DNA of 42,041 bases from a virus (Duplodnaviria; Caudoviricetes), in the IMG/VR virus record IMGVR_UViG_3300017707_001954, positions 1-42,041 of that record; one strand, 5' to 3'. Each line of letters starts with the position of its first letter. Position 1 is the first letter of the stretch. The notes under the pieces are model-generated. The model did no database searches. It was not told the origin of the DNA and worked only from the letters and a program-made list of their open reading frames with translations. Below are positions 441 through 41,498 of the stretch, piece by piece. A program made the translations under genes and the position numbers.

Positions 441-1862
441 CTATCGCCTTACCGCAGGCACCAACCGGTCTTCTCTCGAATACCGTTTGGCCATTGCCTC
501 GTCCACATGACCAAGGCCCACGGATACTGCCGCCACACCACCGAACCGCCGCAGAGCCTGAGCCTTACGGTGCCGCAGCAGATACGCCACTTGCGTGCCC
601 TGAACACCGCACTCCCGCAGCCACTCATTTAAACGTCGGTTGTGCAAATCCTTCATCTCCGTTGGATGCACGCAGCCAAACAAAGACGCATCCCTTCTCA
701 TCTCCACCAGCAATCTAACTGTTTCCGTTGAAACAGGTGTCACCACCTCATGCCCACCCTTCACCGCCGGAATGCACAACAGCGCCCCAAATTCTCCCAG
801 TTCCTCCACCGGCACACGCCACTCAGCCGCCATCTGCGCCCGCGCTGAAGCCAGCCCCACCGCATCCAGCAGCCGCAAGGCCTCACCACCGAGCGCGCGC
901 AGAGTGCCAGGCCGCACACCCGTCTCCTCACACACCCGGAAGAAAGCATAAAGCTGCTCATCCTCCACCCTCAAAGCAGGCAACCGCCGTTCAATCTCCG
1001 CCATCACCTCGGGCGGAATACTCTTGTGCCCCTTCGGCTTTGGCAGTTTAAACTTCGCACCCAAAAAGTCCCCCAGATCCGGCACACGCAACCCCTCCAG
1101 AATACGGTCCCGTGCATCCTCGCCAAAGATCGTATTCACATTCGTAAAGTAGCTGGTGATAGTCGTATTCCATTCTGCCACCGTCCGCAGATCCAGCGCT
1201 GGCAGTTCGCCCGCCGCTTTTAGCGCCCGAAGCTCCTCCCACGCACCCGCAGGAGCCTTCTTCCCAGCACCCAGTCCCAGCCATCCGCGACGCCCCGCCT
1301 CCTGGCGCATCTCCGCCCAATCCTTCTTCAGCCTTTTGGTCAGATCACTCCAGCCAAACGAGTCTAGCGAAAGCCCACGCGCCTGCCCAAGAATCACCCC
1401 GAGCGAATTGACCCGCGCCCGAGCATCTGCCGGTCCACGCTTCACATACAAAGCCAGCACCTCCTGCGGGGACGACCAAGTTTTCGGTGCCCGCATCTCC
1501 TCCAGTCGCGCAATCTCCCCACGTTGCAGCAGCACCGTCTGAGTCTCCAGCCAGCTCTCCGCCCACCCCGTCACCCGCTGCTGACACTCACAGCGCGGCC
1601 GAGTTACCACCGGATTCTCCACCTCCGCCATGCACCGATCACAAATTCGATACCGCACCAGCTTCGTCCCAGCCGTCACCGACCTCTGCGCCTGCCCTGG
1701 CATGGAAAACACCACCACCCAATTACGCTGATACTCCGGCACATTCGGGTCCTCCCACCCCTTCCGCACCACCTGCCCAGTCACTGGATGCACCCAAGCC
1801 TCCTTTGGCTGAAGCTGACGTTTGAGAGAGAAGGAACCAATGTAAGTGCCGCGTGATTTCAT
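441..1862 (-). CDS. int: Prophage tyrosine integrase (divergent)
   Basis: Catalytic motifs ETGVRPG (R), KGG (K), YLLRH (H-x-x-R equivalent), LGH and RY. Its start lies next to the tRNA-derived att core. Confidence 0.8.
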   Translation of the reverse strand: MKSRGTYIGSFSLKRQLQPKEAWVHPVTGQVVRKGWEDPNVPEYQRNWVVVFSMPGQAQRSVTAGTKLVRYRICDRCMAEVENPVVTRPRCECQQRVTGWAESWLETQTVLLQRGEIARLEEMRAPKTWSSPQEVLALYVKRGPADARARVNSLGVILGQARGLSLDSFGWSDLTKRLKKDWAEMRQEAGRRGWLGLGAGKKAPAGAWEELRALKAAGELPALDLRTVAEWNTTITSYFTNVNTIFGEDARDRILEGLRVPDLGDFLGAKFKLPKPKGHKSIPPEVMAEIERRLPALRVEDEQLYAFFRVCEETGVRPGTLRALGGEALRLLDAVGLASARAQMAAEWRVPVEELGEFGALLCIPAVKGGHEVVTPVSTETVRLLVEMRRDASLFGCVHPTEMKDLHNRRLNEWLRECGVQGTQVAYLLRHRKAQALRRFGGVAAVSVGLGHVDEAMAKRYSREDRLVPAVRR

Positions 1863-10598: not shown

Positions 10599-10804
10599 GC
10601 TTGCACCTCCTGGATGTAGGTGGTTCGCAGGCCATCTGTCACCGCCACCTTGCCACCGCCGCGAGGTTTCAGCCGCGACATAATCACGTCGATGTATTCG
10701 GGGATGAATTGACGCAAGGCCACATACTGCATGTCACTCCCGCGATCTCCGGCCATGGTGGCGGCGATCTCGTCGGGGCTTTGGCCTGGGGGGTCAGAGG
10801 TCAT
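10595..10804 (-). CDS. Hypothetical protein, 69 aa
   Basis: ATGA overlaps with both neighbours. Confidence 0.6.
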   Translation of the reverse strand: MTSDPPGQSPDEIAATMAGDRGSDMQYVALRQFIPEYIDVIMSRLKPRGGGKVAVTDGLRTTYIQEVQA

Positions 10805-13800
10805 GCGGGTTTGAAGATCATGGCGCGTTTCATCCAGCCGGTCACGATGAGATCATTGCCATCCCAGCAGACGCCAAGAGGATAGCGCATGTTTTGAGAG
10901 TTCGGGCTGCCGCCTGCCCACTCGCCCGCACTGCTGCTGATGCTGGCCTGTCCGAGCACGGCATCCATGCTTGCACCGCTGGCAGTAGGAAGTTCATAGA
11001 AAAGGGCCACGCGACTGTTTTGGTAGTCGCCCACGGCCACTTGGCCGAGATCATTGCAAGCTACGGAGCGTGGCGTTGAGCAGGTAGTAGCGGTGCTGCC
11101 GCTGCCGGTCACGCCAAAACCGCTTTGAAGTAGGACATGAGTAGCGCTGGCATTGTTTACCGTAGGGATGCTGGCAAAGACGCACACGCGGTTGTTGCTG
11201 CTATCTGCCACGAGCAGTTTGCCATCGGGCATTTCAGCCACGTCGTAAGGCTTGTTGAACTTATTAGCCGCGCTGCCAGTGGTGGCCACAGTAAATCCGG
11301 TCTGGCCGATCACGACATTAGCGGCAACACCGTTGGTTGTTGGCACACTATTCCATACGAGCACGCGGTTATTACCACTGTCGGCCACGATGAGCTTGCC
11401 GCTGCTCGTCACGCGGATGCCGTAGGGGGTATTGAGCTTGGCGGCCGTGAGTCCGCTGGAATAGGTGGTGAGGTTCGGTTGACCGATGACATTGGCCGGT
11501 GTGCTGCTGGCGCTGACAGGTGCGGCATAGCGGAGAATGCGGTGCGTGTTGACGCCACCGACTAAGAGGTCTTCACCACTCCATGCGACCGTTGACCAAC
11601 CATTCGAGACGCCGCCCGTAATATCGAGGAGGAGGAAATCAGCGGCAGCACCATTGGCGGTCGGCACACTGTTCCACACATAGACAGAGCCATCACTAAC
11701 ATTCACGATGGCCAGTTTGCCTGCGGGGGAGATCGCAGCGCCCCAGACGACATTGGACATCAGGCTGGATGTATTGGAAGCCACCTGATCATCAAAGTCC
11801 GCCTGCCCGAGCACCACGTTGGCGCTTTGGTAGGTGGTCAGGGCATCCGCCGGGGTGCCGGTGCCGCTGATGGTGATGTCGTAAGTCTGCTTGCTCACCG
11901 TGCTGGCGTTGTTCGTCAGTCGCAGGGTGCAGGTGCGGACACCGTAGCCGCTTGGGTTGAAGGTGACTTTGAAGGTCGTGGTGCCATCGGCAGCGATGCT
12001 GGCGGGCAGGCTGATGCCGCTCACAGTGAAGTCCGCACTGTTGCCGCCCGTGGTGGTGCATCCGGTCACGGAAAGGCTGCTGGTGCCGAGATTGCGGATC
12101 GTGAAGGTGCGCTCAATGGTGCCGCCCGATAGCAAGGCATTGCCGAAGTCAAGGCTCCCACCATCCGCGATAACGGTGGTGGCGGGATACTCCACCTGGA
12201 TGTCCGGCCCGGTGCCGCCGATGCCGTTCAGGGTGATATTTGTCGGGCTTTCGTCGCTGTCACTGCTGGTGATGGCCAGCGTGGTCGTGCGGGCTCCGGT
12301 GGCAGAAGGGTCAAAGGTGACAGTGAAGGTGGTGCTGGCTGCCGCGGCGAGGCTGGTGCTGCCGAGAGCGCTCACGGTGAAGTCACCCGCATTGCCACCC
12401 GACACTGCCGCAGCCAGACTGCTGAGCGTGCCTGCACCGCGATTGTAGATGGTAAAAGTTTTTATCCGCGTGTTGCTACCTGCGGCATCCACAGTGCCGA
12501 AGTCATAGCTGTGGCTGGTTTCCACCACCAGGCCGAGCGGGTCCTGAACCTCGATCTCGCCCACGGCCACACCAGTCCCGCTGAGGGTGATGGTGTAGGG
12601 ATCTTCGTCCAAGTCGGTGTTGATGATGGTCAGCGTGCTTGTCAAAGTGCCGCCAGCGGTGGGGATGAAGGTTACTTGCAGTGTCGTGCTGCCGCCTGCG
12701 GCCACGGTGCCATCCGGCGCGGTCGTGAGCTGCCAGTCACCGGCTCCCACGGCAGCGGCCACCGTCAAATTCCCCGTGCCGGTGTTCTCGATGGTGATCG
12801 TATAGGCTTGGCTGCTACCGGTGTCCACACTGCCAAAGGCGATGGTGCTGCCGGTGGCGTAGCTGGTGCCGCTGTATTTGACATTGATCTCCGGATCCGT
12901 GGCGGTGCCAGTGAGGGAGATCACGAGCGGGCTGGCCGGGTCATCGCTAGCCAAGCTGAGGCTTGCGGTGCGACTGCCAGAGCCCTGCGGGTTAAAGGTC
13001 AGGTCAAAGGTGGCGGTGCCGCCATTGGCTGCCACGGTGGTGGGCAGGGTGCCCACGATGAAATCCGTGTTGTGCGTGCCGCTGAGGGTGGCGGCGAGGT
13101 TGTTGAGGCTGAGCACGCCATTGTTCAGGATCGTCAGGGTCAGCGTGGTGCTGGCCTCCACGGCGGTGCTGGCAAAGGAGAGCGCGGAGCTGATGACGCT
13201 GCTGCCATTCTTCAGCACAAGCTCACTCTGCGGAGTCGCCATGAATTGCAGCGTGTTGCTGGTCAGGCCGGAGCGTTTGACCCGCGCCCAGTAGATCTGC
13301 CCACGGGTGAGGCCGGTCACGGTGTATTCCAGCGGGGCAGTGCTGTTCACCGCCTGATCCTTCAGCAGCAATCCACGGGTGAAGTCGGGAGAGGTGGCCA
13401 CATCCAGCGTGGTGCCACTGCCGGCCACATCCCAAGCCAGGTCCACGCTAGTGCTGCTCACGGGGGTATAGCTGAGGTTCAGCCCCGTGCTAGCACCTGC
13501 GCTGCTGGGGGCATCCAGCTCGATGATGGTGGTCATCCATCCGCCCATGTAGGGCCGGACATCCACATCAAGGATGATCGTGCCGGGCCAGACCTCGGGA
13601 TCGGTAGCGGGCTCGGTGAAGGTAAAGCCACCATCCGTAAACACGAGCTGCGGGTGCAGACATGCCTGCGTGCTGACTTGGAAACCTTCCGGCCCTTGGA
13701 AGTAAATGGAGCGCGGCAGCATCCGAGTCGGCTCGGGGATGTAGGGCTTGCTGCCACTGGTCGGCCATGAGGGGTTGCCGTCGTAGTCGGGCATCACGCG

Positions 13801-14661
13801 GGTCCACATCTCCGTCATGCGGCCTTTGCACGGGCCGTTGTAGCTGTCGGTTTTCCAAATCGGATAGGTGATGTAGCCACGGATGGCGGAGTAGATATTG
13901 CCCGCGTCCTCATAGATGGGCAGCACGAAGTAGCCGCTGAGCACGGGCGGCCAGTAGTGCCGCATGGGGCGCGGGATGATGCGGCTGGCCTTGCCATTCA
14001 CCGCTTGTCCGGCGATGCCGGGAGCCTTCCGCACGGTCCGCACGAGCCAGTCGGGATTGATGCCATCCACCTCGGCCATGCTGCCGCTGTCATCCGGCGC
14101 ACTGCCATGGGTGCCCGCAGGCACGAGCGTGCGGGTCACGGTGCGGATCTCGCCCGATTCGGAGTCGAGTGATTCCGACACGACACCCTCCCGGATGTCA
14201 CGCCAGATGCGGGTGATCACGATGTAAAGGCCATCCAACGGCTGCGGCAGGCGGTCCTGCCGCTGCTCGATGAAGGTCCACTCATAGGCACTGCTAAAGG
14301 TGGGCGGCGTCTCGCTCGGCGTCGTTTCACTCGGCACCCAGCCGGAGCGTTTCACGATGAAGGTCTGCCGAATCTGCGGGCCGTATTGGTCCGACAGCAC
14401 CTTGCTGAACTCGAAATTGTAATCTTCCTGGTCACTCCGCACCTTCGCATAGATGGGATACTGAAAGCCTTCCTCCGTGGGGTCAAAGCCCACGAGCTCA
14501 TAGTCTGGGAACTCACTGGCTGGAGCATACGCCTGCCCGATGGTCATGCGGGCGGCCACGTCATCACGCACCTTCTTCCCACGCAGGAGCAGGTCCTTCA
14601 GCGGCGAGTCAAAGCGGAGCGTGCGGTTGGGATCATCTCCCGTGAGATTCCAGGCGGCCAT
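10801..14661 (-). CDS. Tail/receptor-binding protein: phage N-terminal region, FN3, four Ig-like (ASH/choice-of-anchor-D type) repeats, C-terminal NHL beta-propeller
   Basis: FN3 motif YTVTGLTRGQIYWARV. Four repeats of F-G/A..T-I-x-N-x-G...L...F-x-P...T-x-x-L-x-I..D..P...L-x-G-x-G. NHL repeats LIVADSGNNRVLVW and LLVADSSNNRV with VLGQ spacers. Confidence 0.75.
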   Translation of the reverse strand: MAAWNLTGDDPNRTLRFDSPLKDLLLRGKKVRDDVAARMTIGQAYAPASEFPDYELVGFDPTEEGFQYPIYAKVRSDQEDYNFEFSKVLSDQYGPQIRQTFIVKRSGWVPSETTPSETPPTFSSAYEWTFIEQRQDRLPQPLDGLYIVITRIWRDIREGVVSESLDSESGEIRTVTRTLVPAGTHGSAPDDSGSMAEVDGINPDWLVRTVRKAPGIAGQAVNGKASRIIPRPMRHYWPPVLSGYFVLPIYEDAGNIYSAIRGYITYPIWKTDSYNGPCKGRMTEMWTRVMPDYDGNPSWPTSGSKPYIPEPTRMLPRSIYFQGPEGFQVSTQACLHPQLVFTDGGFTFTEPATDPEVWPGTIILDVDVRPYMGGWMTTIIELDAPSSAGASTGLNLSYTPVSSTSVDLAWDVAGSGTTLDVATSPDFTRGLLLKDQAVNSTAPLEYTVTGLTRGQIYWARVKRSGLTSNTLQFMATPQSELVLKNGSSVISSALSFASTAVEASTTLTLTILNNGVLSLNNLAATLSGTHNTDFIVGTLPTTVAANGGTATFDLTFNPQGSGSRTASLSLASDDPASPLVISLTGTATDPEINVKYSGTSYATGSTIAFGSVDTGSSQAYTITIENTGTGNLTVAAAVGAGDWQLTTAPDGTVAAGGSTTLQVTFIPTAGGTLTSTLTIINTDLDEDPYTITLSGTGVAVGEIEVQDPLGLVVETSHSYDFGTVDAAGSNTRIKTFTIYNRGAGTLSSLAAAVSGGNAGDFTVSALGSTSLAAAASTTFTVTFDPSATGARTTTLAITSSDSDESPTNITLNGIGGTGPDIQVEYPATTVIADGGSLDFGNALLSGGTIERTFTIRNLGTSSLSVTGCTTTGGNSADFTVSGISLPASIAADGTTTFKVTFNPSGYGVRTCTLRLTNNASTVSKQTYDITISGTGTPADALTTYQSANVVLGQADFDDQVASNTSSLMSNVVWGAAISPAGKLAIVNVSDGSVYVWNSVPTANGAAADFLLLDITGGVSNGWSTVAWSGEDLLVGGVNTHRILRYAAPVSASSTPANVIGQPNLTTYSSGLTAAKLNTPYGIRVTSSGKLIVADSGNNRVLVWNSVPTTNGVAANVVIGQTGFTVATTGSAANKFNKPYDVAEMPDGKLLVADSSNNRVCVFASIPTVNNASATHVLLQSGFGVTGSGSTATTCSTPRSVACNDLGQVAVGDYQNSRVALFYELPTASGASMDAVLGQASISSSAGEWAGGSPNSQNMRYPLGVCWDGNDLIVTGWMKRAMIFKPA

Positions 14662-33620: not shown

Positions 33621-34238
33621 ATGAGCACCGCCCTCACCATCCGCCCGCAGTCCGCCAAACGCCCCGACCGCAAAACCCGCAAAGAAGCCACCCCAGAGCA
33701 AAAAGAAGCCGCAGCCGCACGCCGTGCCGGCATCAAGCAGCTCTGCGCCATCGTCAAAGCCCTGCCCGTAGAAAAGCGCGTCCTCCTCGCCGCCTCCTAC
33801 GGCATCCGCAGCGCAGAGGGCCGCGAGCTCTCCCCCTTCAATCAATGCCTCCTCGTTCATCAAAACTCATCCGTTTCCATCGTGGGCGGCTTCCAGCAGT
33901 GGAAGAAACTCGGCCGCAGTGTCAAGAAAGGCGAGCGCTCCCTCGCCATCTGGGTCCCCTGCGGCAAGCAGGCCGAAAGCGCCAATGACGCCGCCGCGAA
34001 TCCCGACACCGACAACGACAAATTCTTCATCCTCGGCAGCGTCTTCGACATCACCCAGACAGAGACCGACGAGGAAAAAGCCGCCCGCGTAGCCGGTGAG
34101 ACCCTCGCCCTCCCAGCCCCAGCGCTCGCCCTGCCCTATCGCGCCGACGCCTTCGACATCGAAGCCGAGCCCATCACCGACGAGCCCGAGCCCGAGCCCG
34201 CCGCCAGCATCCAAGACGAATTCACCCTCTGCGACTAA
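33621..34238 (+). CDS. ArdC N-terminal-like (DUF1738) ssDNA-binding/anti-restriction protein
   Basis: SPFNQCLL...GFQQWKKLGRSVKKGERSLAIWVP...VFDITQT. Confidence 0.8.
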   Translation: MSTALTIRPQSAKRPDRKTRKEATPEQKEAAAARRAGIKQLCAIVKALPVEKRVLLAASYGIRSAEGRELSPFNQCLLVHQNSSVSIVGGFQQWKKLGRSVKKGERSLAIWVPCGKQAESANDAAANPDTDNDKFFILGSVFDITQTETDEEKAARVAGETLALPAPALALPYRADAFDIEAEPITDEPEPEPAASIQDEFTLCD

Positions 34239-36649: not shown

Positions 36650-36665
36650 CTTGATTTCAATCAAG
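36650..36665 (+). promoter_or_regulatory. Palindromic operator overlapping a probable -35 box upstream of the repressor-like gene
   Basis: CTTGAT-TTCA-ATCAAG, with TTGATT as -35 in an AT-rich gap. Confidence 0.5.
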
Positions 36666-36690: not shown

Positions 36691-37134
36691 ATGAGCTACC
36701 TCGCCGTCCAAGTCACCGAATACCTTCGCACCTGCCCACATTCCGCCCGGGAGATCGAAGAGCGCGCCAAACTGCCCCGCATGACCCTCGGCACCATCCA
36801 GCGTGACGGCCATCCCCGGCCCGACCGCTTCGGCCAGCTCCTGAAAGCCGTCGATGACCACACTGCCCGCCAATGGCTCGAAGCCTACCTGCTCGACGAC
36901 TGCCCCGAAGCCTGGCTTCCCCGCGTCAAAATCCTCATCGAAGGCCTGCAACATATACAGACCACAGACACCAGCCACCTCGCCGAGCCCCACAAATCCT
37001 ACGGCCCCCCAGCCGACCCCATCGCCGCCACCGCCCGCGCCCTCCACCGCCTCCAGTCTGCCATGGCCAAAGACCGCGAGCTCAGCACCTGGTTCCTCCA
37101 AACCGTCACCCTCATCCTCGGCCCCGAAGAATGA
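36691..37134 (+). CDS. XRE/CI-like HTH repressor candidate
   Basis: SAREIEERAKLPRMTLGTIQRDGHPRPDRFGQLLKAV; its stop overlaps the distal boundary of the cassette array. Confidence 0.6.
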   Translation: MSYLAVQVTEYLRTCPHSAREIEERAKLPRMTLGTIQRDGHPRPDRFGQLLKAVDDHTARQWLEAYLLDDCPEAWLPRVKILIEGLQHIQTTDTSHLAEPHKSYGPPADPIAATARALHRLQSAMAKDRELSTWFLQTVTLILGPEE

Positions 37135-37232
37135 ACGATCAAACTGTGCCGACCGAGGGCGGCGATAAAAAGCTATGAAATCACAAACGACGACACCGCC
37201 GACCGAAGGTTGGCACCAGTGGCTGGTTCGGC
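37130..37232 (-). repeat. attC of cassette 6 (distal)
   Basis: Minus strand: R'' GCCGAAC, 5 nt, L'' ACTGGTGC (extra G) ... L' GCACAGT, 6 nt, R' GTTCATT. Confidence 0.85.
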
Positions 37233-37462
37233 TTTGGAAGGCCGTGACGCATTCGCACACATGGCAGAGGATCAATGATGCCTCAATCATGGATGTAAAT
37301 GACACATATCCGCCAACTCATATCGACTACATCAGCCCGAAACGCTGGTGTCCTGAATGCGGGCGGATGGAATGGTATGTAGGGCCTGAAGTCTGCGGCG
37401 GAGATCGAGCACGATGGGTGCCGTTCTCGCCATGGACTGACGATGATGAGCCGAACCGCTAG
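37175..37462 (+). CDS. Cassette 6 ORF, hypothetical with H-x-H...CPEC metal-binding motif
   Basis: Starts in its own attC loop; ends EPNR* inside the next attC. Confidence 0.65.
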   Translation: MKSQTTTPPTEGWHQWLVRLWKAVTHSHTWQRINDASIMDVNDTYPPTHIDYISPKRWCPECGRMEWYVGPEVCGGDRARWVPFSPWTDDDEPNR

Positions 37463-37543
37463 GGCTATGCCGCCCGCAACTGAATCGGACCATGGAAAGT
37501 AACAGCACAGCTATTGAAGGTCGTCATCAGCCCCTTGTTCGGC
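37450..37543 (-). repeat. attC of cassette 5
   Basis: Minus strand: GCCGAAC-AAGGG-GCTGATGA ... GCATAGC-CCTAGCG-GTTCGGC. Confidence 0.8.
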
Positions 37544-37845
37544 CTCTTCGGGCGAAGGACATGGCCGCATTCTTCAACGCCGACCCAACACCGGAAACGC
37601 TGGTCAAGATCGCCTGCGCCATGGACGCCGAGACATCGGAAATCCTCAAATCAAGGGGTATCCAGAAAGACGCCTCGTTCTTATCGCTCCTGAAAGAGCA
37701 GGACAACAAGTGGCAGGCTTTCGCCCGTCGCTGCCCAGACGTGAACCCGATGGCATTCCGGCTAGTCATGCAAAAACTCCACCCAACCACTGCGGCCTTT
37801 GCTTGGCCGAACGACAGAATCCACCCACATGATGGGCGTAAATAG
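37492..37845 (+). CDS. Cassette 5 ORF, hypothetical
   Basis: Starts in the attC loop; ends WPNDRIHPHDGRK* inside the next attC. Confidence 0.7.
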   Translation: MESNSTAIEGRHQPLVRPLRAKDMAAFFNADPTPETLVKIACAMDAETSEILKSRGIQKDASFLSLLKEQDNKWQAFARRCPDVNPMAFRLVMQKLHPTTAAFAWPNDRIHPHDGRK

Positions 37846-37905
37846 ACATCCGCTTTCACGCAAGACACTGCCGCCCATCATGTTGGGTGCGATGCCTTGT
37901 TCAGC
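37806..37905 (-). repeat. attC of cassette 4
   Basis: Minus strand: GCTGAAC-AAGGC-ATCGCACC-CAACATGATGGGCG ... CGCCCATCATGTG-GGTGGAT-TCTGTC-GTTCGGC; two extrahelical bases. Confidence 0.9.
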
Positions 37906-38026
37906 TTTGACCGCAGCAGAGGACGCTCTGCCGATGGCCTCTGGGCCGGAACTGCGGGCAGGAGTGGCAGACGTAAACCCACCCCGCTACCTCTCGGCGT
38001 AACAACAGCGGAGGAAACTTTCGACC

Positions 38027-38275
38027 ATGAACAACATACACTGCATCCCAGTCGGAAACGGCGAGCCAATACATGAATGTCACACGCTCTGCTGGTGCCA
38101 TCCGGTGAAGGACACCGAATCCGTAAATCTCTATGCCCACAACGCGAAAGACTGCCGCGAGAAGTGGGAGCGCCAAGGACTCGAAATGCCATCTGAGTCC
38201 TTGTGGGTGACTGTGGAAGAGAAGCTGAACGAATCAAGTGATGGCGCGGCGGGCTGCGGCCCGAACTCGCCTTGA
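38027..38275 (+). CDS. Cassette 4 ORF, Cys/His-rich small protein
   Basis: GGAGG upstream; H-x-x-P...H....CWCHP...H motif; stop inside the next attC. Confidence 0.7.
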   Translation: MNNIHCIPVGNGEPIHECHTLCWCHPVKDTESVNLYAHNAKDCREKWERQGLEMPSESLWVTVEEKLNESSDGAAGCGPNSP

Positions 38276-38312
38276 GAGCTTATCGCCGTCGGCCATCCAC
38301 GTCTTGTTCGTG
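38224..38312 (-). repeat. attC of cassette 3
   Basis: Minus strand: CACGAAC-AAGAC-GTGGATGG-CCGACGGCG ... CGCCGCG-CCATCAC-TTGATTC-GTTCAGC. Confidence 0.85.
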
Positions 38313-38344
38313 GGCGGCGGACTGGCACGAAAGACACCGAAACC

Positions 38345-38581
38345 ATGATCACAATCCCCGAATCTTACATGCTGCTGAACTGCGGAAAGTGCGGTCACGA
38401 GGCTGACTTCTTCGACTTCTGTCGCACGCCGATCACCGGCGAACTTCCTAGCGGAACCCACCAATGCCCTAAGTGCCGGAAGGCATGGAAAATGGAAAAG
38501 TATGAGGAAGGCCAATGGCTCGCCACTGGCCAATACATCCCACCAGGCCGCCGTGCTGTCTCAATCCCCACCATCCTCTAA
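38345..38581 (+). CDS. Cassette 3 ORF a, zinc-ribbon protein
   Basis: CGKC ... CPKC. Confidence 0.7.
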   Translation: MITIPESYMLLNCGKCGHEADFFDFCRTPITGELPSGTHQCPKCRKAWKMEKYEEGQWLATGQYIPPGRRAVSIPTIL

Positions 38582-38583
38582 TC

Positions 38584-38880
38584 ATGTCCGATCTACCTGA
38601 AACACTCTGGGGGCCGCTGTGGCGGCACATGCACAACGAGCACGGCCTGATCCTGCTCGATGACGAATGCAACCAAATCGCGCAAGCCGCCGATGAAGCA
38701 AGGATGGCCGCTGGAACGCCAGTGGCAATGATCCTGATCAACGCGCTGCGGAGCCTGAGCAAAAAGGAGCTGGTGACGCTGGGCAAGGCAATCGCGGATC
38801 GCTGCGGACACAGGCTCGAACCAGCAATTTGTCCCACGAACGCCGCTGGTGAGGCGACGGCGAGCGATACGCGCCGATGA
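38584..38880 (+). CDS. Cassette 3 ORF b, hypothetical
   Basis: ATG 2 nt after the previous stop (MSDLPETLWGPLW); ends PTNAAGEATASDTRR* inside the next attC. Confidence 0.65.
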   Translation: MSDLPETLWGPLWRHMHNEHGLILLDDECNQIAQAADEARMAAGTPVAMILINALRSLSKKELVTLGKAIADRCGHRLEPAICPTNAAGEATASDTRR

Positions 38881-38927
38881 CATGATAGACCAACTTCGAG
38901 CCGTTGCCTCCAGCAGCATGGTTCAGC
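38835..38927 (-). repeat. attC of cassette 2
   Basis: Minus strand: GCTGAAC-CATGCT-GCTGGAGG-CAACGGC ... GCCGTCG-CCTCACC-AGCGGC-GTTCGTG. Confidence 0.85.
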
Positions 38928-38945
38928 CCGAAACCTCCCACGACT

Positions 38946-39215
38946 ATGACCATACAGAGCCTCACGCAAGATCACGAAGCCGCCGCCAAAGCACTCATGG
39001 ACGGCATCAAAGAGCTGATACCTGTCGGCACAAAACTGCGAATCCTCATGCGGGGGCGCGGTGGCAAAACCATTGACGCTGAAGTCATCTCCCACGGCCA
39101 CGCATGGAGCATCAAGTATCCTCACGAGGTGCATGTGAAGAATCTCAAAACAGGCAAGACTCGCACGATAGATGTCCATCCCGAGTTCGGACACCGCTAC
39201 GAGGTCATTGGCTGA
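38946..39215 (+). CDS. Cassette 2 ORF, small SH3-like beta protein (hypothetical)
   Basis: MTIQSLTQD...PVGTKLRI...VHVKNLKTGKTRTI; TGA lies inside the GCTGAAC core. Confidence 0.65.
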   Translation: MTIQSLTQDHEAAAKALMDGIKELIPVGTKLRILMRGRGGKTIDAEVISHGHAWSIKYPHEVHVKNLKTGKTRTIDVHPEFGHRYEVIG

Positions 39216-39272
39216 ACGCTTGAGATCAGCCACTGAGCCTAAGCGAAGTTGGACTGCATCTCATTGTTCTCT
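39211..39272 (-). repeat. attC of cassette 1 (62 bp, minimal size)
   Basis: Minus strand: AGAGAAC-AAT-GAGATGCAGTCCAACT ... AGTGGCTGATCTC-AAGC-GTTCAGC. Confidence 0.85.
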
Positions 39273-39302
39273 GACGTTGGTAAAAAATCTCCAAATAAGG
39301 AC

Positions 39303-39331
39303 TTGCACAATGTAGCTTAATGCTACATAAT
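39303..39331 (+). promoter_or_regulatory. Cassette-internal sigma70 promoter with an overlapping palindromic operator
   Basis: TTGCAC-17 bp-CATAAT; ATGTAGC-TTAAT-GCTACAT (39310-39328); GGGGA then ATG 39340. Confidence 0.75.
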
Positions 39332-39339
39332 GGGGACAT

Positions 39340-39567
39340 ATGAAACCACCATTACTACAAATCAAAATCGGGAGTCAGGCACGCATCACAGCCATTAGTC
39401 TTCAACATGCCCGAGCAATTTGGGAGCAGTATCGCGCCGACAAAGATCTTGGCGCAAGCAATGCACCCAAAGTTCTTCTCTATCTGGATGGAGTGAAGAT
39501 CGGACACATGAGCTACAATGGCCGTATCTGGGACTTGGACAATGTAGAAATGGAGGCAGCAGCGTGA
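39340..39567 (+). CDS. Cassette 1 ORF a, hypothetical (HMSYNGRIW motif)
   Basis: Own promoter and RBS; coupled to the next gene by a GTGA overlap. Confidence 0.75.
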   Translation: MKPPLLQIKIGSQARITAISLQHARAIWEQYRADKDLGASNAPKVLLYLDGVKIGHMSYNGRIWDLDNVEMEAAA

Positions 39568-40235
39568 GAGTCCTTATCGGCTATGAATCATCAGGCATGA
39601 CTCGCGAAGCCTTTAGGCGGCGCGGGCATGATGCGTGGTCGTGCGATATACAGCCCGCTGACGATAACTCTTCGTATCACTATCAATGTGACATTCGCGA
39701 TGTCGTCCACATGGGGTGGGACCTAGCCATCTTCCACCCATCATGCACTTACCTTACGTGTTCCGCAGAGTGGGCTTATGGTGACGGTCCATATCACATG
39801 AACCTAAAGATAGGAACGCTTGTGGGCAAAGCCAGACGGCAAGCCCGCGAAGCGGCGATAGCCGAAGTAAAATGGCTGTGGGCGCTGCCGATTGAGCGCA
39901 TAGTGATCGAAAACCCAAAAGGCGCTTTATCAACGCGATGGAGGAAGCCGACACAAATAATTCAGCCTCACGAGTATGGTGACGACGCCAGCAAAGAAAC
40001 GCACATCTGGAGCCGGGGATGCTCTCTTATGACCCCGACGTTGCATGTAGCTCCTCGCATCGTGGAGCATCCAAAAGGATCAGGAAAACTGGTCAAGCGC
40101 TGGGCCAATCAAACCGACTCAGGACAGAATAAACTTACGCCATCACAAACCCGATGGAAAGAGCGAAGCAAGACCTATCCCGGTATTGCTGAAGCCCTCG
40201 CATCGCAACTTCTCCAAGATTTTCGCCTCGTATGA
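39564..40235 (+). CDS. Cassette 1 ORF b, short phage-type C5-cytosine DNA methyltransferase-like protein
   Basis: MRVLIGYESSG (motif I variant), AWSCD, FHPSCT (PC-motif variant), IENP. GTG start after GGAGG. Confidence 0.75.
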   Translation: MRVLIGYESSGMTREAFRRRGHDAWSCDIQPADDNSSYHYQCDIRDVVHMGWDLAIFHPSCTYLTCSAEWAYGDGPYHMNLKIGTLVGKARRQAREAAIAEVKWLWALPIERIVIENPKGALSTRWRKPTQIIQPHEYGDDASKETHIWSRGCSLMTPTLHVAPRIVEHPKGSGKLVKRWANQTDSGQNKLTPSQTRWKERSKTYPGIAEALASQLLQDFRLV

Positions 40236-40447
40236 CGCCAGATCAATACAAAGCCACCCGTGAGCGCCTCGGCACACAAGCCGAGGTCGCTCTCATGCTC
40301 GGCGTGAATCGCGTGACTGTCGCGAAGCGGGAGAACGGCACCATGACCATCACAAACGAGGCAGTCCTAGCGATTCAGTCGCTCCGAAGGCCGAGACGTA
40401 AACGCAAGTCAGAGAACACTGATTATCCCGACCAGCTTTCCAGATAG
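40232..40447 (+). CDS. Cassette 1 ORF c, XRE HTH protein whose C-terminus crosses attI
   Basis: MTPDQYKATRERLGTQAEVALMLGVNRVTVAKRENG. Confidence 0.85.
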   Translation: MTPDQYKATRERLGTQAEVALMLGVNRVTVAKRENGTMTITNEAVLAIQSLRRPRRKRKSENTDYPDQLSR

Positions 40448-40475: not shown

Positions 40476-41498
40476 ATGACACTCCCCGAAATGGTTGAAC
40501 AAGTCCGCATCGTCTGCCGAATGCGCCGACTTTCCCGGCACACCGAGGATTGTTACAGCGGCTGGATCACACGCTTTGCCGCGCACGTCCGCACCTGTCC
40601 GGAACTCAGCCGCGACGAGCGCGTGCGCACCTACCTCGAAAAGCTCGCCCCGCGCACCTCCGCAAGCACCCAAAACCAAGCCCTGAACGCCATCGTCTTC
40701 CTGTATCGCGATGTCATCAAAGAACCCTTGGGTGACCTTGGCAAATGGGCACGGGCCAAACGCCCCGCCCGCCTGCCCACCTGGCTATCACCGCAGGAAA
40801 TGCAGCGCCTGCTTGATCAAATGCCGCCCGGCACCCGCATGATGGCCGAACTCGCTTATGGCTCGGGCCTGCGCGTGGCCGAGCTGCTCGCCCTCCGCAT
40901 CAAAGACATCGACCTTGATGCCCATCTCGTCACCGTCAGAGGCGGCAAGGGTGACAAAGACCGCATCACCGTCCTACCCCGCAGCCTCATGCATCGGCTT
41001 CACGCCCATCTCAACCGCATCCGCGTCCTCTATGATGGCGACCGCGCCGCCAGCGCCCCGCCCATCTACCTCCCCGATGGCCTCGAGCGCAAGTTTCCCA
41101 ATGCCGGCCGCGAGTGGGCATGGTTTTGGCTATGGCCAGCCGCCAGCCACAGCACCGATCCCCGCACCGGCATCCACCGCCGCCATCACGTCCACGAAGA
41201 CACGCTCGGCAAAGCCCTCAAACTTGCCACCCGCAAAGCCGGACTGCACAAACGAGTCACCGCCCACACCCTCCGGCACAGCTTTGCCACCAATCTCCTC
41301 GCCAGTGGTGCCAGCATCACCCAAGTGCAGGAACTCCTCGGCCATAACAGCGTCGAAACCACCCAGGTCTATCTTCACTGCGTCCCCCAGTTCGCCGCCA
41401 CCATCACCAGCCCGCTTGATGCTCTGCCAGCAGCGTCAAACATCCTTCCCTTTCACGTCCCATCCTCACAGTCCCAGCCCCTTGCCCGCACCGCATGA
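40476..41498 (+). CDS. intI: Integron integrase (IntI family)
   Basis: SASTQNQALNAIVFLYR, YGSGLRVAE, GGKGDKDR, HTLRHSFAT, LLGH..V.TT.VY, plus the integron-specific insertion IYLPDGLERKFPNAGREWAWFWLWP...DPRTG..RRHH. Confidence 0.95.
   Translation: MTLPEMVEQVRIVCRMRRLSRHTEDCYSGWITRFAAHVRTCPELSRDERVRTYLEKLAPRTSASTQNQALNAIVFLYRDVIKEPLGDLGKWARAKRPARLPTWLSPQEMQRLLDQMPPGTRMMAELAYGSGLRVAELLALRIKDIDLDAHLVTVRGGKGDKDRITVLPRSLMHRLHAHLNRIRVLYDGDRAASAPPIYLPDGLERKFPNAGREWAWFWLWPAASHSTDPRTGIHRRHHVHEDTLGKALKLATRKAGLHKRVTAHTLRHSFATNLLASGASITQVQELLGHNSVETTQVYLHCVPQFAATITSPLDALPAASNILPFHVPSSQSQPLARTA

What the first reader, a model, noticed from the sequence alone, without database searches (positions are those of the whole stretch)
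37131..40447. attC and attI sites double as coding sequence: fixed-frame read-through with swappable C-termini
Seen: five of six terminal cassette ORFs cross the crossover with the core AAC as an in-frame Asn (EP-N-R*, WP-N-DRIHPHDGRK*, KL-N-ESSDGAAGCGPNSP*, PT-N-AAGEATASDTRR*, SE-N-TDYPDQLSR*). The sixth, and the upstream repressor gene, stop at the TGA of TGAAC. All six attC sites and attI supply a stop in that AAC frame within 16 codons, including N-DQTVPTEGGDKKL* and N-A*. ORFs 37175 and 37492 start in the attC loop and read out through L-V-R. Inference: a modular grammar in which any cassette order still gives terminated proteins, and shuffling changes their C-terminal tails.
Basis: partly seen in the sequence, partly recalled or inferred. 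Interest (0 to 1): 0.8.

Follow-up and report, generated by a model that had tools for sequence, protein, structure and literature searches.

The report
Fixed reading frame across integron junctions
This lake phage carries a gene-swapping array whose genes run through the swap points in one fixed reading frame, so reshuffling changes each protein's tail without fusing neighbours and likely hands the ribosome on to the next gene whatever the order.

Summary
The window is a phage with a true integron integrase (TIGR02249 above cut-off), attI and six attC cassettes. Their genes point toward intI, opposite to bacterial cassettes, so gene ends cross the crossover. The scan had already noted this reversed layout on other DNA; none of the listed notes mention a frame rule.

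In related arrays, 84 of 89 read-through cassette families read the core AAC as Asn (codon usage predicts 47-50). That frame never runs into the next gene (0 of 159; other frames 26 and 19). Homologues are conserved up to this Asn, then carry unrelated tails.

- The frame-A stop often overlaps the next start (ATGA; 26 vs 8 and 6).
- Genes that stop early often hand over to a mini-ORF in the same frame, as at 37131-37178.
- Canonical bacterial cassettes also favour this frame.

Corrections: L-V-R is not a rule (25/25/22), and the tails look dispensable.

Best reading: a selected convention that prevents fusions and likely couples translation across attC hairpins, with tail swapping as a by-product. 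Translation itself is untested.

The parts
36691..37134 (+). Backbone gene upstream of the array, HTH/repressor-like (147 aa); its TGA overlaps the core (ATGAAC)
   Evidence: No Pfam, PHROGs or NCBIfam hit. Atlas feature hits 0.94-0.95, some to HTH_3 clusters including a Verrucomicrobiota one (a lead only)
37131..37178 (+). Predicted relay mini-ORF MNDQTVPTEGGDKKL: starts on the upstream gene's stop (ATGA), crosses the crossover in frame A and ends on the start of ORF 37175 (ATGA)
   Evidence: Sequence; translation untested
37134..37228 (-). attC1 (AAC to GTT; top strand is the - strand)
37175..37462 (+). Cassette 1 gene (95 aa): starts in the attC1 loop and ends EP-N-R in attC2
   Evidence: cassette 1 = 37136-37455
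37454..37539 (-). attC2
37492..37845 (+). Cassette 2 gene (117 aa): starts in the attC2 loop; its tail comes from attC3
   Evidence: Homologues share the body to AFAWP, then differ; cassette 2 = 37456-37811
37810..37901 (-). attC3
38027..38275 (+). Cassette 3 gene (82 aa); its tail comes from attC4
   Evidence: 14 homologues: 12 continue N plus differing tails, 2 end just before N; cassette 3 = 37812-38229
38228..38308 (-). attC4
38345..38880 (+). Cassette 4 genes: 38345-38581 (Cys-rich, 78 aa) and 38584-38880 (98 aa, tail from attC5)
   Evidence: no family hits; cassette 4 = 38230-38840
38839..38923 (-). attC5
38946..39215 (+). Cassette 5 gene (89 aa); stops at the TGA of TGAAC
   Evidence: cassette 5 = 38841-39216
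39215..39268 (-). attC6 (short)
39304..40447 (+). Cassette 6 contents: promoter-like site 39304-39331, ORF 39340-39567, DNA methyltransferase 39564-40235, HTH gene 40232-40447 whose tail comes from attI
   Evidence: phrog_757; HTH_3; cassette 6 = 39217-40416
40415..40447 (-). attI (core AAC at 40415 on +), conserved in relatives 3' of the core only
40476..41498 (+). Integron integrase IntI (340 aa)
   Evidence: TIGR02249 344 bits, cut-off 265

Best explanation
This is a phage integron whose cassette genes face the integrase and cross the recombination point in one fixed frame (core AAC read as Asn), a convention likely kept by selection because it prevents fusions and would pass ribosomes across each attC hairpin to the next gene in any cassette order. 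Shown: the layout, the crossover position, the frame bias, the absence of frame-A fusions, the stop/start overlaps, and natural rearrangements at the cores. Inferred: a transcript from the upstream phage gene runs through the array toward intI. A ribosome then reaches AAC in frame A, either by read-through of the gene (99 of 168 called junctions) or through a short relay ORF that starts on the gene's stop. It translates the left arm of the incoming attC, opens the hairpin, and stops there, often on the next start codon, where it would reinitiate. A gene may instead simply stop at the TAA of TAAC (30 of 168). The swapped tails are mostly tolerated by-products.
For: Frame: 84 A, 1 B, 4 C of 89 families; the context-matched codon null expects 47-50 A, and the maximum in 200,000 draws is 65-70. 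It holds in separate groups: 47:0:0, 16:0:1 and 36:1:3. Stops: first stop inside attC in frame A 151, B 101, C 83 of 172 reversed sites; 41, 47, 45 of 88 canonical sites on the same, there non-coding, strand (Fisher p 3e-12 for A, 0.43 for B). Fusions: 0, 26, 19 of 159. Coupling: of 76 genes starting inside their attC, the first stop lies within -11..+10 nt of the start in 46 (A), 16 (B), 14 (C). Open-path NTGA overlaps number 26, 8, 6 (p 4e-5), or 23, 5, 6 with one site per attC cluster. Relay: among 33 gene stops 2-15 nt before AAC, 21 are in frame C (p 4e-4), 20 of these are TGA (p 1e-4 against 56% usage) and 18 have a frame-A start; all 6 frame-B stops have one too. Genes starting inside attC have an SD-like motif less often (15 of 76) than those starting outside (43 of 83). 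The first 10 codons in frame A are lower in Arg and higher in Asp/Glu than the same frame of canonical sites (9.4 vs 17%; 12.4 vs 7.1%). Precedent: ORF-11 in attI1 and short ORFs in attC couple translation (PMC8876359, passages and section 3.2).
Against: No translation or transcript data. An ATG-A start makes a TGA by itself, so the ATGA excess also fits termination-only selection. Among genes starting inside attC, those without a nearby frame-A stop have SD motifs less often (2 of 30) than the coupled ones (13 of 46), which is opposite to the simple prediction. TAA-stop cassettes show no clear relay excess (12 of 34 vs 7.9 expected). In the window only attC1 shows an exact overlap with the main downstream gene; at attC2, 4, 5 and 6 the next start is 32-119 nt after the stop. 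The frame-A stop at attI is not placed on the intI start. Canonical cassettes, where start and stop travel together and need no convention, also favour frame A, so modularity is not the only cause. Deleting attC changed downstream expression in only a minority of 10 class 1 cassettes (PMC11511950, passages). Gene and attC calls come from my own scripts, and related phages share cassettes.
Confidence: 0.6

Rival explanations
1. Termination only: the frame is fixed just to avoid fusions and long junk tails. The ATGA overlaps are a cheap way to supply the stop, and no ribosome hand-over matters.
For: 0 of 159 frame-A fusions. 38 of 172 sites stop at the second codon after AAC, before the stem is crossed. 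Most window sites lack an exact overlap. The SD comparison among genes starting inside attC does not follow the coupling prediction.
Against: It does not explain relay starts behind genes that have already stopped (frame-A start in 17 of 29, against 1 and 3 in the other frames). It does not explain the same relay pattern in canonical cassettes (16 of 28 vs 3 and 1).
Confidence: 0.2
2. Tails are functional: cassette order sets each protein's C-terminus and so tunes its stability or activity.
For: Tail swapping is real: the HTH gene has four different tails in four arrays, and the 38027 family has many. Last residues are skewed to A, D, K and R (17, 15, 11, 10 of 99; no null tested).
Against: Tails share no sequence or length (2-86 codons). 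They are hydrophilic (15% hydrophobic against 31% in gene bodies). Two of 14 homologues of 38027 end before the Asn, and two of 6 homologues of 37492 carry short non-Asn ends.
Confidence: 0.1
3. Relic of cassette birth or descent: new cassettes are built on old attC templates or cut at Asn codons, so frame A is inherited without present selection.
For: AAC is most often in frame in genes (2394 vs 1688 and 1001). A shared attC-plus-start module carries different gene bodies. Canonical sites have a frame-A stop at codon 2 more often than the other frames (14, 4, 3 of 88).
Against: Codon usage predicts only 47-50 of 89. The frame at the other arm (GTT) is random. Among families with G before AAC none reads in frame B (41 read in frame A). 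The bias recurs in separate integrase clades.
Confidence: 0.08
4. Artefact of my gene or site calling.
For: Home-made Markov caller and attC finder; 6 of 174 junctions uncalled; several of the few B/C calls sit at mis-chained boundaries.
Against: The same caller returns canonical orientation for bacterial loci and a random frame at GTT. Database proteins called by others show the same N-plus-tail pattern. Contig breakpoints fall on the cores.
Confidence: 0.02

Closest known systems
ORF-11 / ORF-18 of class 1 integron attI1 (Hanau-Bercot et al., as reviewed in PMC8876359; passages read)
   Same: A short ORF spans the crossover, takes its in-phase stop from the incoming cassette, and couples translation to the next gene; the peptide itself hardly matters.
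   Different: ORF-11 is a dedicated platform ORF acting at the first position only. Here the cassette genes themselves, or relay ORFs, cross every attC and attI junction in one shared frame.
Short ORFs within attC that relieve the hairpin block (Jacquier et al. 2009, seen only through PMC8876359 section 3.2 and a passage of PMC8191803; original not held)
   Same: Translation through attC followed by termination-reinitiation at the next cassette.
   Different: In canonical cassettes start, attC and stop belong to one cassette. Here the track is chimeric, made at recombination. I found no report of a fixed AAC frame in the papers and passages seen.
Canonical integrons (class 1 mobile and sedentary chromosomal)
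   Same: IntI, attI next to intI, attC hairpins with an extra base on the R'' side, cores complementary within each cassette.
   Different: Genes lie on the opposite strand and face intI (45 of 51 viral loci; 0 of 12 metagenome loci). Read-through at the core is common (104 of 168 vs 10 of 98).
Phage-borne integrons and CALINs (Qi et al. 2023, PMC9892861; passages read)
   Same: Integron parts in phage genomes; phage attC sites shown there to recombine with IntI1.
   Different: The passages seen describe typical or divergent orientation and nothing on frame or read-through.
Synthetic attC sites embedded in coding sequence (Nivina et al. 2020, PMC7439510; passages) and the gcuF1-blaOXA-28 fusion (PMC3375312; passages)
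   Same: attC can be translated and still recombine.
   Different: These are engineered sites or a single natural fusion. Here fusions are avoided array-wide.

Membership tests
Integron | Integron-type tyrosine recombinase IntI | tested here: met
   TIGR02249 344 bits, cut-off 265
Integron | attI next to the 5' end of intI, variable on the cassette side only | tested here: met
   Relatives conserved 3' of AAC and divergent 5' of it
Integron | attC hairpins with AAC/GTT cores, unpaired spacer and an extrahelical base on the R'' side | tested here: met
   5 of 6 found at score >=10 with no other hit at that score in 42 kb on either strand; the sixth at a lower score with core match. Own detector, not IntegronFinder.
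Integron | Cassettes move as units at the cores | tested here: met
   Core complementarity 6 of 6; the same cassettes with other neighbours; contig joints and loose ends at the cores
Integron | IntI-catalysed recombination shown by experiment | not testable with these tools
   Needs a recombination assay
Canonical (Pc-driven) integron layout | Cassette genes on the top strand, read away from intI | tested here: not met
   All window cassette genes are on the intI strand, facing intI
ORF-11-type translational coupling | An ORF spans the crossover and gets an in-phase stop from the incoming unit | tested here: met
ORF-11-type translational coupling | Stop close to the next start | tested here: inconclusive
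   46 of 76 genes starting inside attC, 13 of 83 starting outside; 1 exact case in the window
ORF-11-type translational coupling | Translation of the spanning ORF raises downstream expression | not testable with these tools
   Needs reporters or ribosome profiling

The most novel reading that the evidence does not exclude
Integron recombination sites carry a hidden, shared reading-frame code, and phages use it actively. Each shuffle both re-couples translation along the operon and gives each accessory protein a position-dependent C-terminal tag that tunes its stability or activity, a natural version of attC-in-protein shuffling so far only engineered.
Probability: 0.12. Interest if true: 0.88.

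Novelty: new variant of a known kind. Interest (0 to 1): 0.72.

Why it matters
It shows how a shuffled gene array can stay a working operon. One reading frame is reserved at every recombination core, so any order yields separate proteins and likely coupled translation. The rule is strong, recurs in separate phage integrase clades, and appears in weaker form in ordinary bacterial cassettes, which suggests an overlooked constraint on attC sites in general. It gives simple tests (frame-shift the entry, remove the relay start), bears on the open question of how cassettes arise, and warns annotators that these C-termini and N-termini are site-derived. It could also guide order-independent synthetic cassette design.

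Tried and rejected
1. L-V-R as a rule: rejected, GTT frame 25/25/22 of 72. Site length and GTT-to-AAC length show no 3n preference.
2. Codon usage as the cause of frame A: rejected.
3. Crossover at the GTT end on + (canonical polarity): rejected by core complementarity and breakpoints.
4. Coupling of the attI tail to the intI start: not seen; offsets are mostly 19-129 nt, 5 nt in three loci.
5. Relay starts before TAA-in-core stops: no clear excess (12 of 34 vs 7.9).
6. The permutation result for ATGA (26 vs 2.5) is not used, because an ATG-A start makes the stop by itself. The upstream-window null for relays (19 of 26 vs 4.4) overstates for the same reason.
7. Expression: no RNA holder listed, so nothing either way.
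8. The generic repeat finder did not show the attC sites.
9. Promoter scan: 2 sites found against 2.4 expected, so the 39304 site is only a lead.
10. mRNA folding: start windows are not uniformly buried (unpaired probability 0.28-0.84).
11. The tree is the quick one; the careful search did not finish. The label needs at least 3 changes among starred branches; a single origin was not formally tested.
12. Literature: searches listed no paper on reversed phage cassettes or a fixed AAC frame. Subscription journals are mostly missing, Jacquier 2009 is not held, and no supplements were read.
13. No structure or complex prediction was run.
Full report
Context. The window is a phage: SU10-type capsid protein, DnaB helicase, SSB and lysozyme. 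ORF 40476-41498 is an integron integrase (TIGR02249, 344 bits against a cut-off of 265). Its closest relative among the GTDB loci returned (a scan that covered 18 of 64 parts) is 74% identical and lies in a Verrucomicrobiaceae MAG (L226), so the host is likely a verrucomicrobium. The best-matching sequencing runs are freshwater metagenomes.

Anatomy. Six attC hairpins and an attI lie upstream of intI. The extra base sits on the right arm. Each cassette's bases after GTT complement those before the next AAC (6 of 6, runs of 5-7 bases), and related attI sites diverge just before AAC. The top strand is therefore the - strand, the crossover is AA|C on +, and all genes are antisense to the canonical layout. 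Natural variants agree. In run X4 one contig has cassette 1 replaced between 37135 and 37454. Joints from 38226-38230 to 40414-40415 in X4 and X5 drop cassettes 4-6; their short sides are 24-31 bases, so they are weak. Loose ends fall at 37457, 37812, 38227, 39214 and 40417.

Wider set. I fetched 305 loci. Chains of attC sites were found in 87 sources (the window plus loci of the first set) and in 31 GTDB loci, using my own detector and a Markov gene caller trained on long ORFs of these loci. Among non-redundant loci with a whole cassette, 45 of 51 viral ones were reversed, 5 mixed and 1 canonical. Of 12 metagenome loci, 11 were canonical and 1 mixed. Of 16 GTDB loci, 12 were canonical, 2 mixed and 2 reversed: L226, and weak L286, which I left out of later counts. 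Earlier scan notes report this reversed layout in other genomes.

Frame rule. At 174 unique reversed junctions the last gene reads through in frame A (AAC = Asn) 99 times, in frame B once and in frame C 4 times. It stops at TAA in the core 30 times, at TGA twice and upstream 32 times; 6 were uncalled. By family, in the set before L226 was added, the read-through split is 84:1:4 of 89. A null from the frame of the same 4-6-mers in 328 long genes expects 47-50 in frame A, with a maximum of 65-70 in 200,000 draws. The bias holds in the window's clade (47:0:0) and in two distant groups (16:0:1; 36:1:3). On a quick tree the reversed loci fall in more than one clade, and one small clade uses TAA stops instead. 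The sites match this: the first stop lies inside attC in frame A for 151 of 172 sites (B 101, C 83), against 41, 47 and 45 of 88 canonical sites on the same strand. Frame A never continues into the cassette's own first gene (0 of 159; B 26, C 19). The limit of 16 codons is not strict (78 of 99), and L-V-R is not a rule.

Tails. The same cassette carries different tails in different arrays: the HTH gene in the window, L004, L006 and L011, and pairs L003/L006, L025/L026, L051/L052 and L062/L063. The 14 homologues of ORF 38027 align to VEEK-x; 12 go on with N and differing tails and 2 stop before N. Homologues of ORF 37492 behave alike, and two distant ones have short non-N ends. Tails are hydrophilic and low in aromatics. 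I read them as tolerated, not as the aim.

Mechanism. About half of the cassettes (76 of 159) start their gene inside their own attC. In these the frame-A stop is within -11..+10 nt of that start in 46 cases (B 16, C 14), and open-path NTGA overlaps number 26, 8 and 6. Genes that stop just before the core tend to do so as NTGA in frame C, which places a start in frame A (21 of 33 in frame C, 20 of them TGA, 18 with a start); all 6 frame-B cases have a frame-A start too. The window has a clean case: the upstream gene's stop overlaps ATG 37131, and this 15-codon ORF ends on the ATG of 37175. Counting read-through and relays, 133 of 168 called junctions have a frame-A track; some relay starts in that count will be chance. 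I infer a transcript from the upstream phage gene toward intI, ribosomes opening each hairpin's left arm, and reinitiation at the next gene. Against this: ATGA also serves termination alone, the SD comparison among inside starts runs the wrong way (2 of 30 vs 13 of 46), TAA-stop cassettes show no clear relay excess, most window junctions have no exact overlap, and no expression data exist.

Canonical control. In 98 canonical cassettes, read on their coding strand into their own attC, read-through is rare (8 A, 2 B). Near-core stops again give frame-A restarts (16 of 28, against 3 and 1), and frame A stops inside the site most often (73, 50, 46). The Asn frame is thus a wider attC property. What is special in phages is that the track crosses the crossover and is usually the gene itself (104 of 168 vs 10 of 98). 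Why frame A was chosen is not settled. TAAC closes frame B, NTGA overlap from frame C leads to frame A, and AAC is commonest in frame; these are inferences.

Known comparisons. It works like ORF-11 of attI1 and like short ORFs in attC (PMC8876359: passages and section 3.2; PMC8191803: one passage; the primary papers were not seen). It is a member of the integrons by integrase, sites and mobility, but fails the canonical layout. PMC11511950 (passages) found untranslated stretches before attC lower downstream expression, while deleting attC mattered in a minority of cassettes. PMC9892861, PMC7439510, PMC3375312 and PMC8618304 were seen as passages only. Nine searches listed nothing on reversed phage cassettes or a fixed frame; the library lacks most subscription journals, and no supplements were read.

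Verdict. Real, general and statistically strong; a new variant of a known kind. Fusion avoidance is shown in sequence, coupling is likely, and functional tails are unlikely.

Noticed in passing
L019 (14270 region and 60-2100 region) and L027 (580-1700 region): These phages carry further reversed arrays away from intI: one with a second attI copy about 4.6 kb downstream of the intI start, and one on the other strand behind the HTH-like gene. Their genes also end N plus tail. One integrase may serve several arrays. Not included in the counts.
   Followed up: partly
window 37134-37255 vs L019:14007-14300: A gene in L019 shares only the first ~26 residues (the attC-encoded part) with cassette 1 and has a different body. 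attC plus start codon looks like a reusable front module, a clue to how cassettes are made.
   Followed up: partly
window 37813-37954: In runs X4 and X5 this stretch (attC3 and leader) is replaced by about 130 other bases while gene 38027 is kept: an attC swapped independently of its gene.
   Followed up: no
leftmost junctions: window 37134, L035, L011, L027, L003, L016: Arrays begin exactly at the stop codon (TGAAC or TAAC) of different backbone genes, HTH-like in some phages and apparently SSB-like in others. The integron module may have entered at gene ends more than once.
   Followed up: partly
window 37829-38002 (+): A possible 57-codon ORF starting in the attC3 stem and overlapping the cassette 2 tail; it may be a leader or spurious.
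   Followed up: no
window 39297-40245: Variants of cassette 6 in runs X2, X3 and X5 lack the methyltransferase region but keep attC6, the promoter-like site (fully in X2 and X3) and the HTH gene; L004, L006 and L011 have shorter HTH cassettes too.
   Followed up: partly
window 36650-36665: A perfect 7-bp inverted repeat in the AT-rich stretch before the HTH-like gene, a possible operator (seen).
   Followed up: no
window 33621-34238 (+), 441-1862 (-), 10801-14661 (-): An ArdC-like anti-restriction gene, a second divergent tyrosine-integrase-like gene, and a 1286-aa protein with ASH/Ig-like and NHL domains.
   Followed up: no
canonical loci such as L131, L238, L297: Bacterial cassettes often have an NTGA-overlap mini-ORF reading N-K-x-L through their own attC in frame A; worth a survey of its own.
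   Followed up: partly
P0003-P0005 vs window 37492: The L-V-R at R'' aligns with L-S-R or L-T-R in more distant homologues, as if the core had been written onto the gene's own N-terminus.
   Followed up: no
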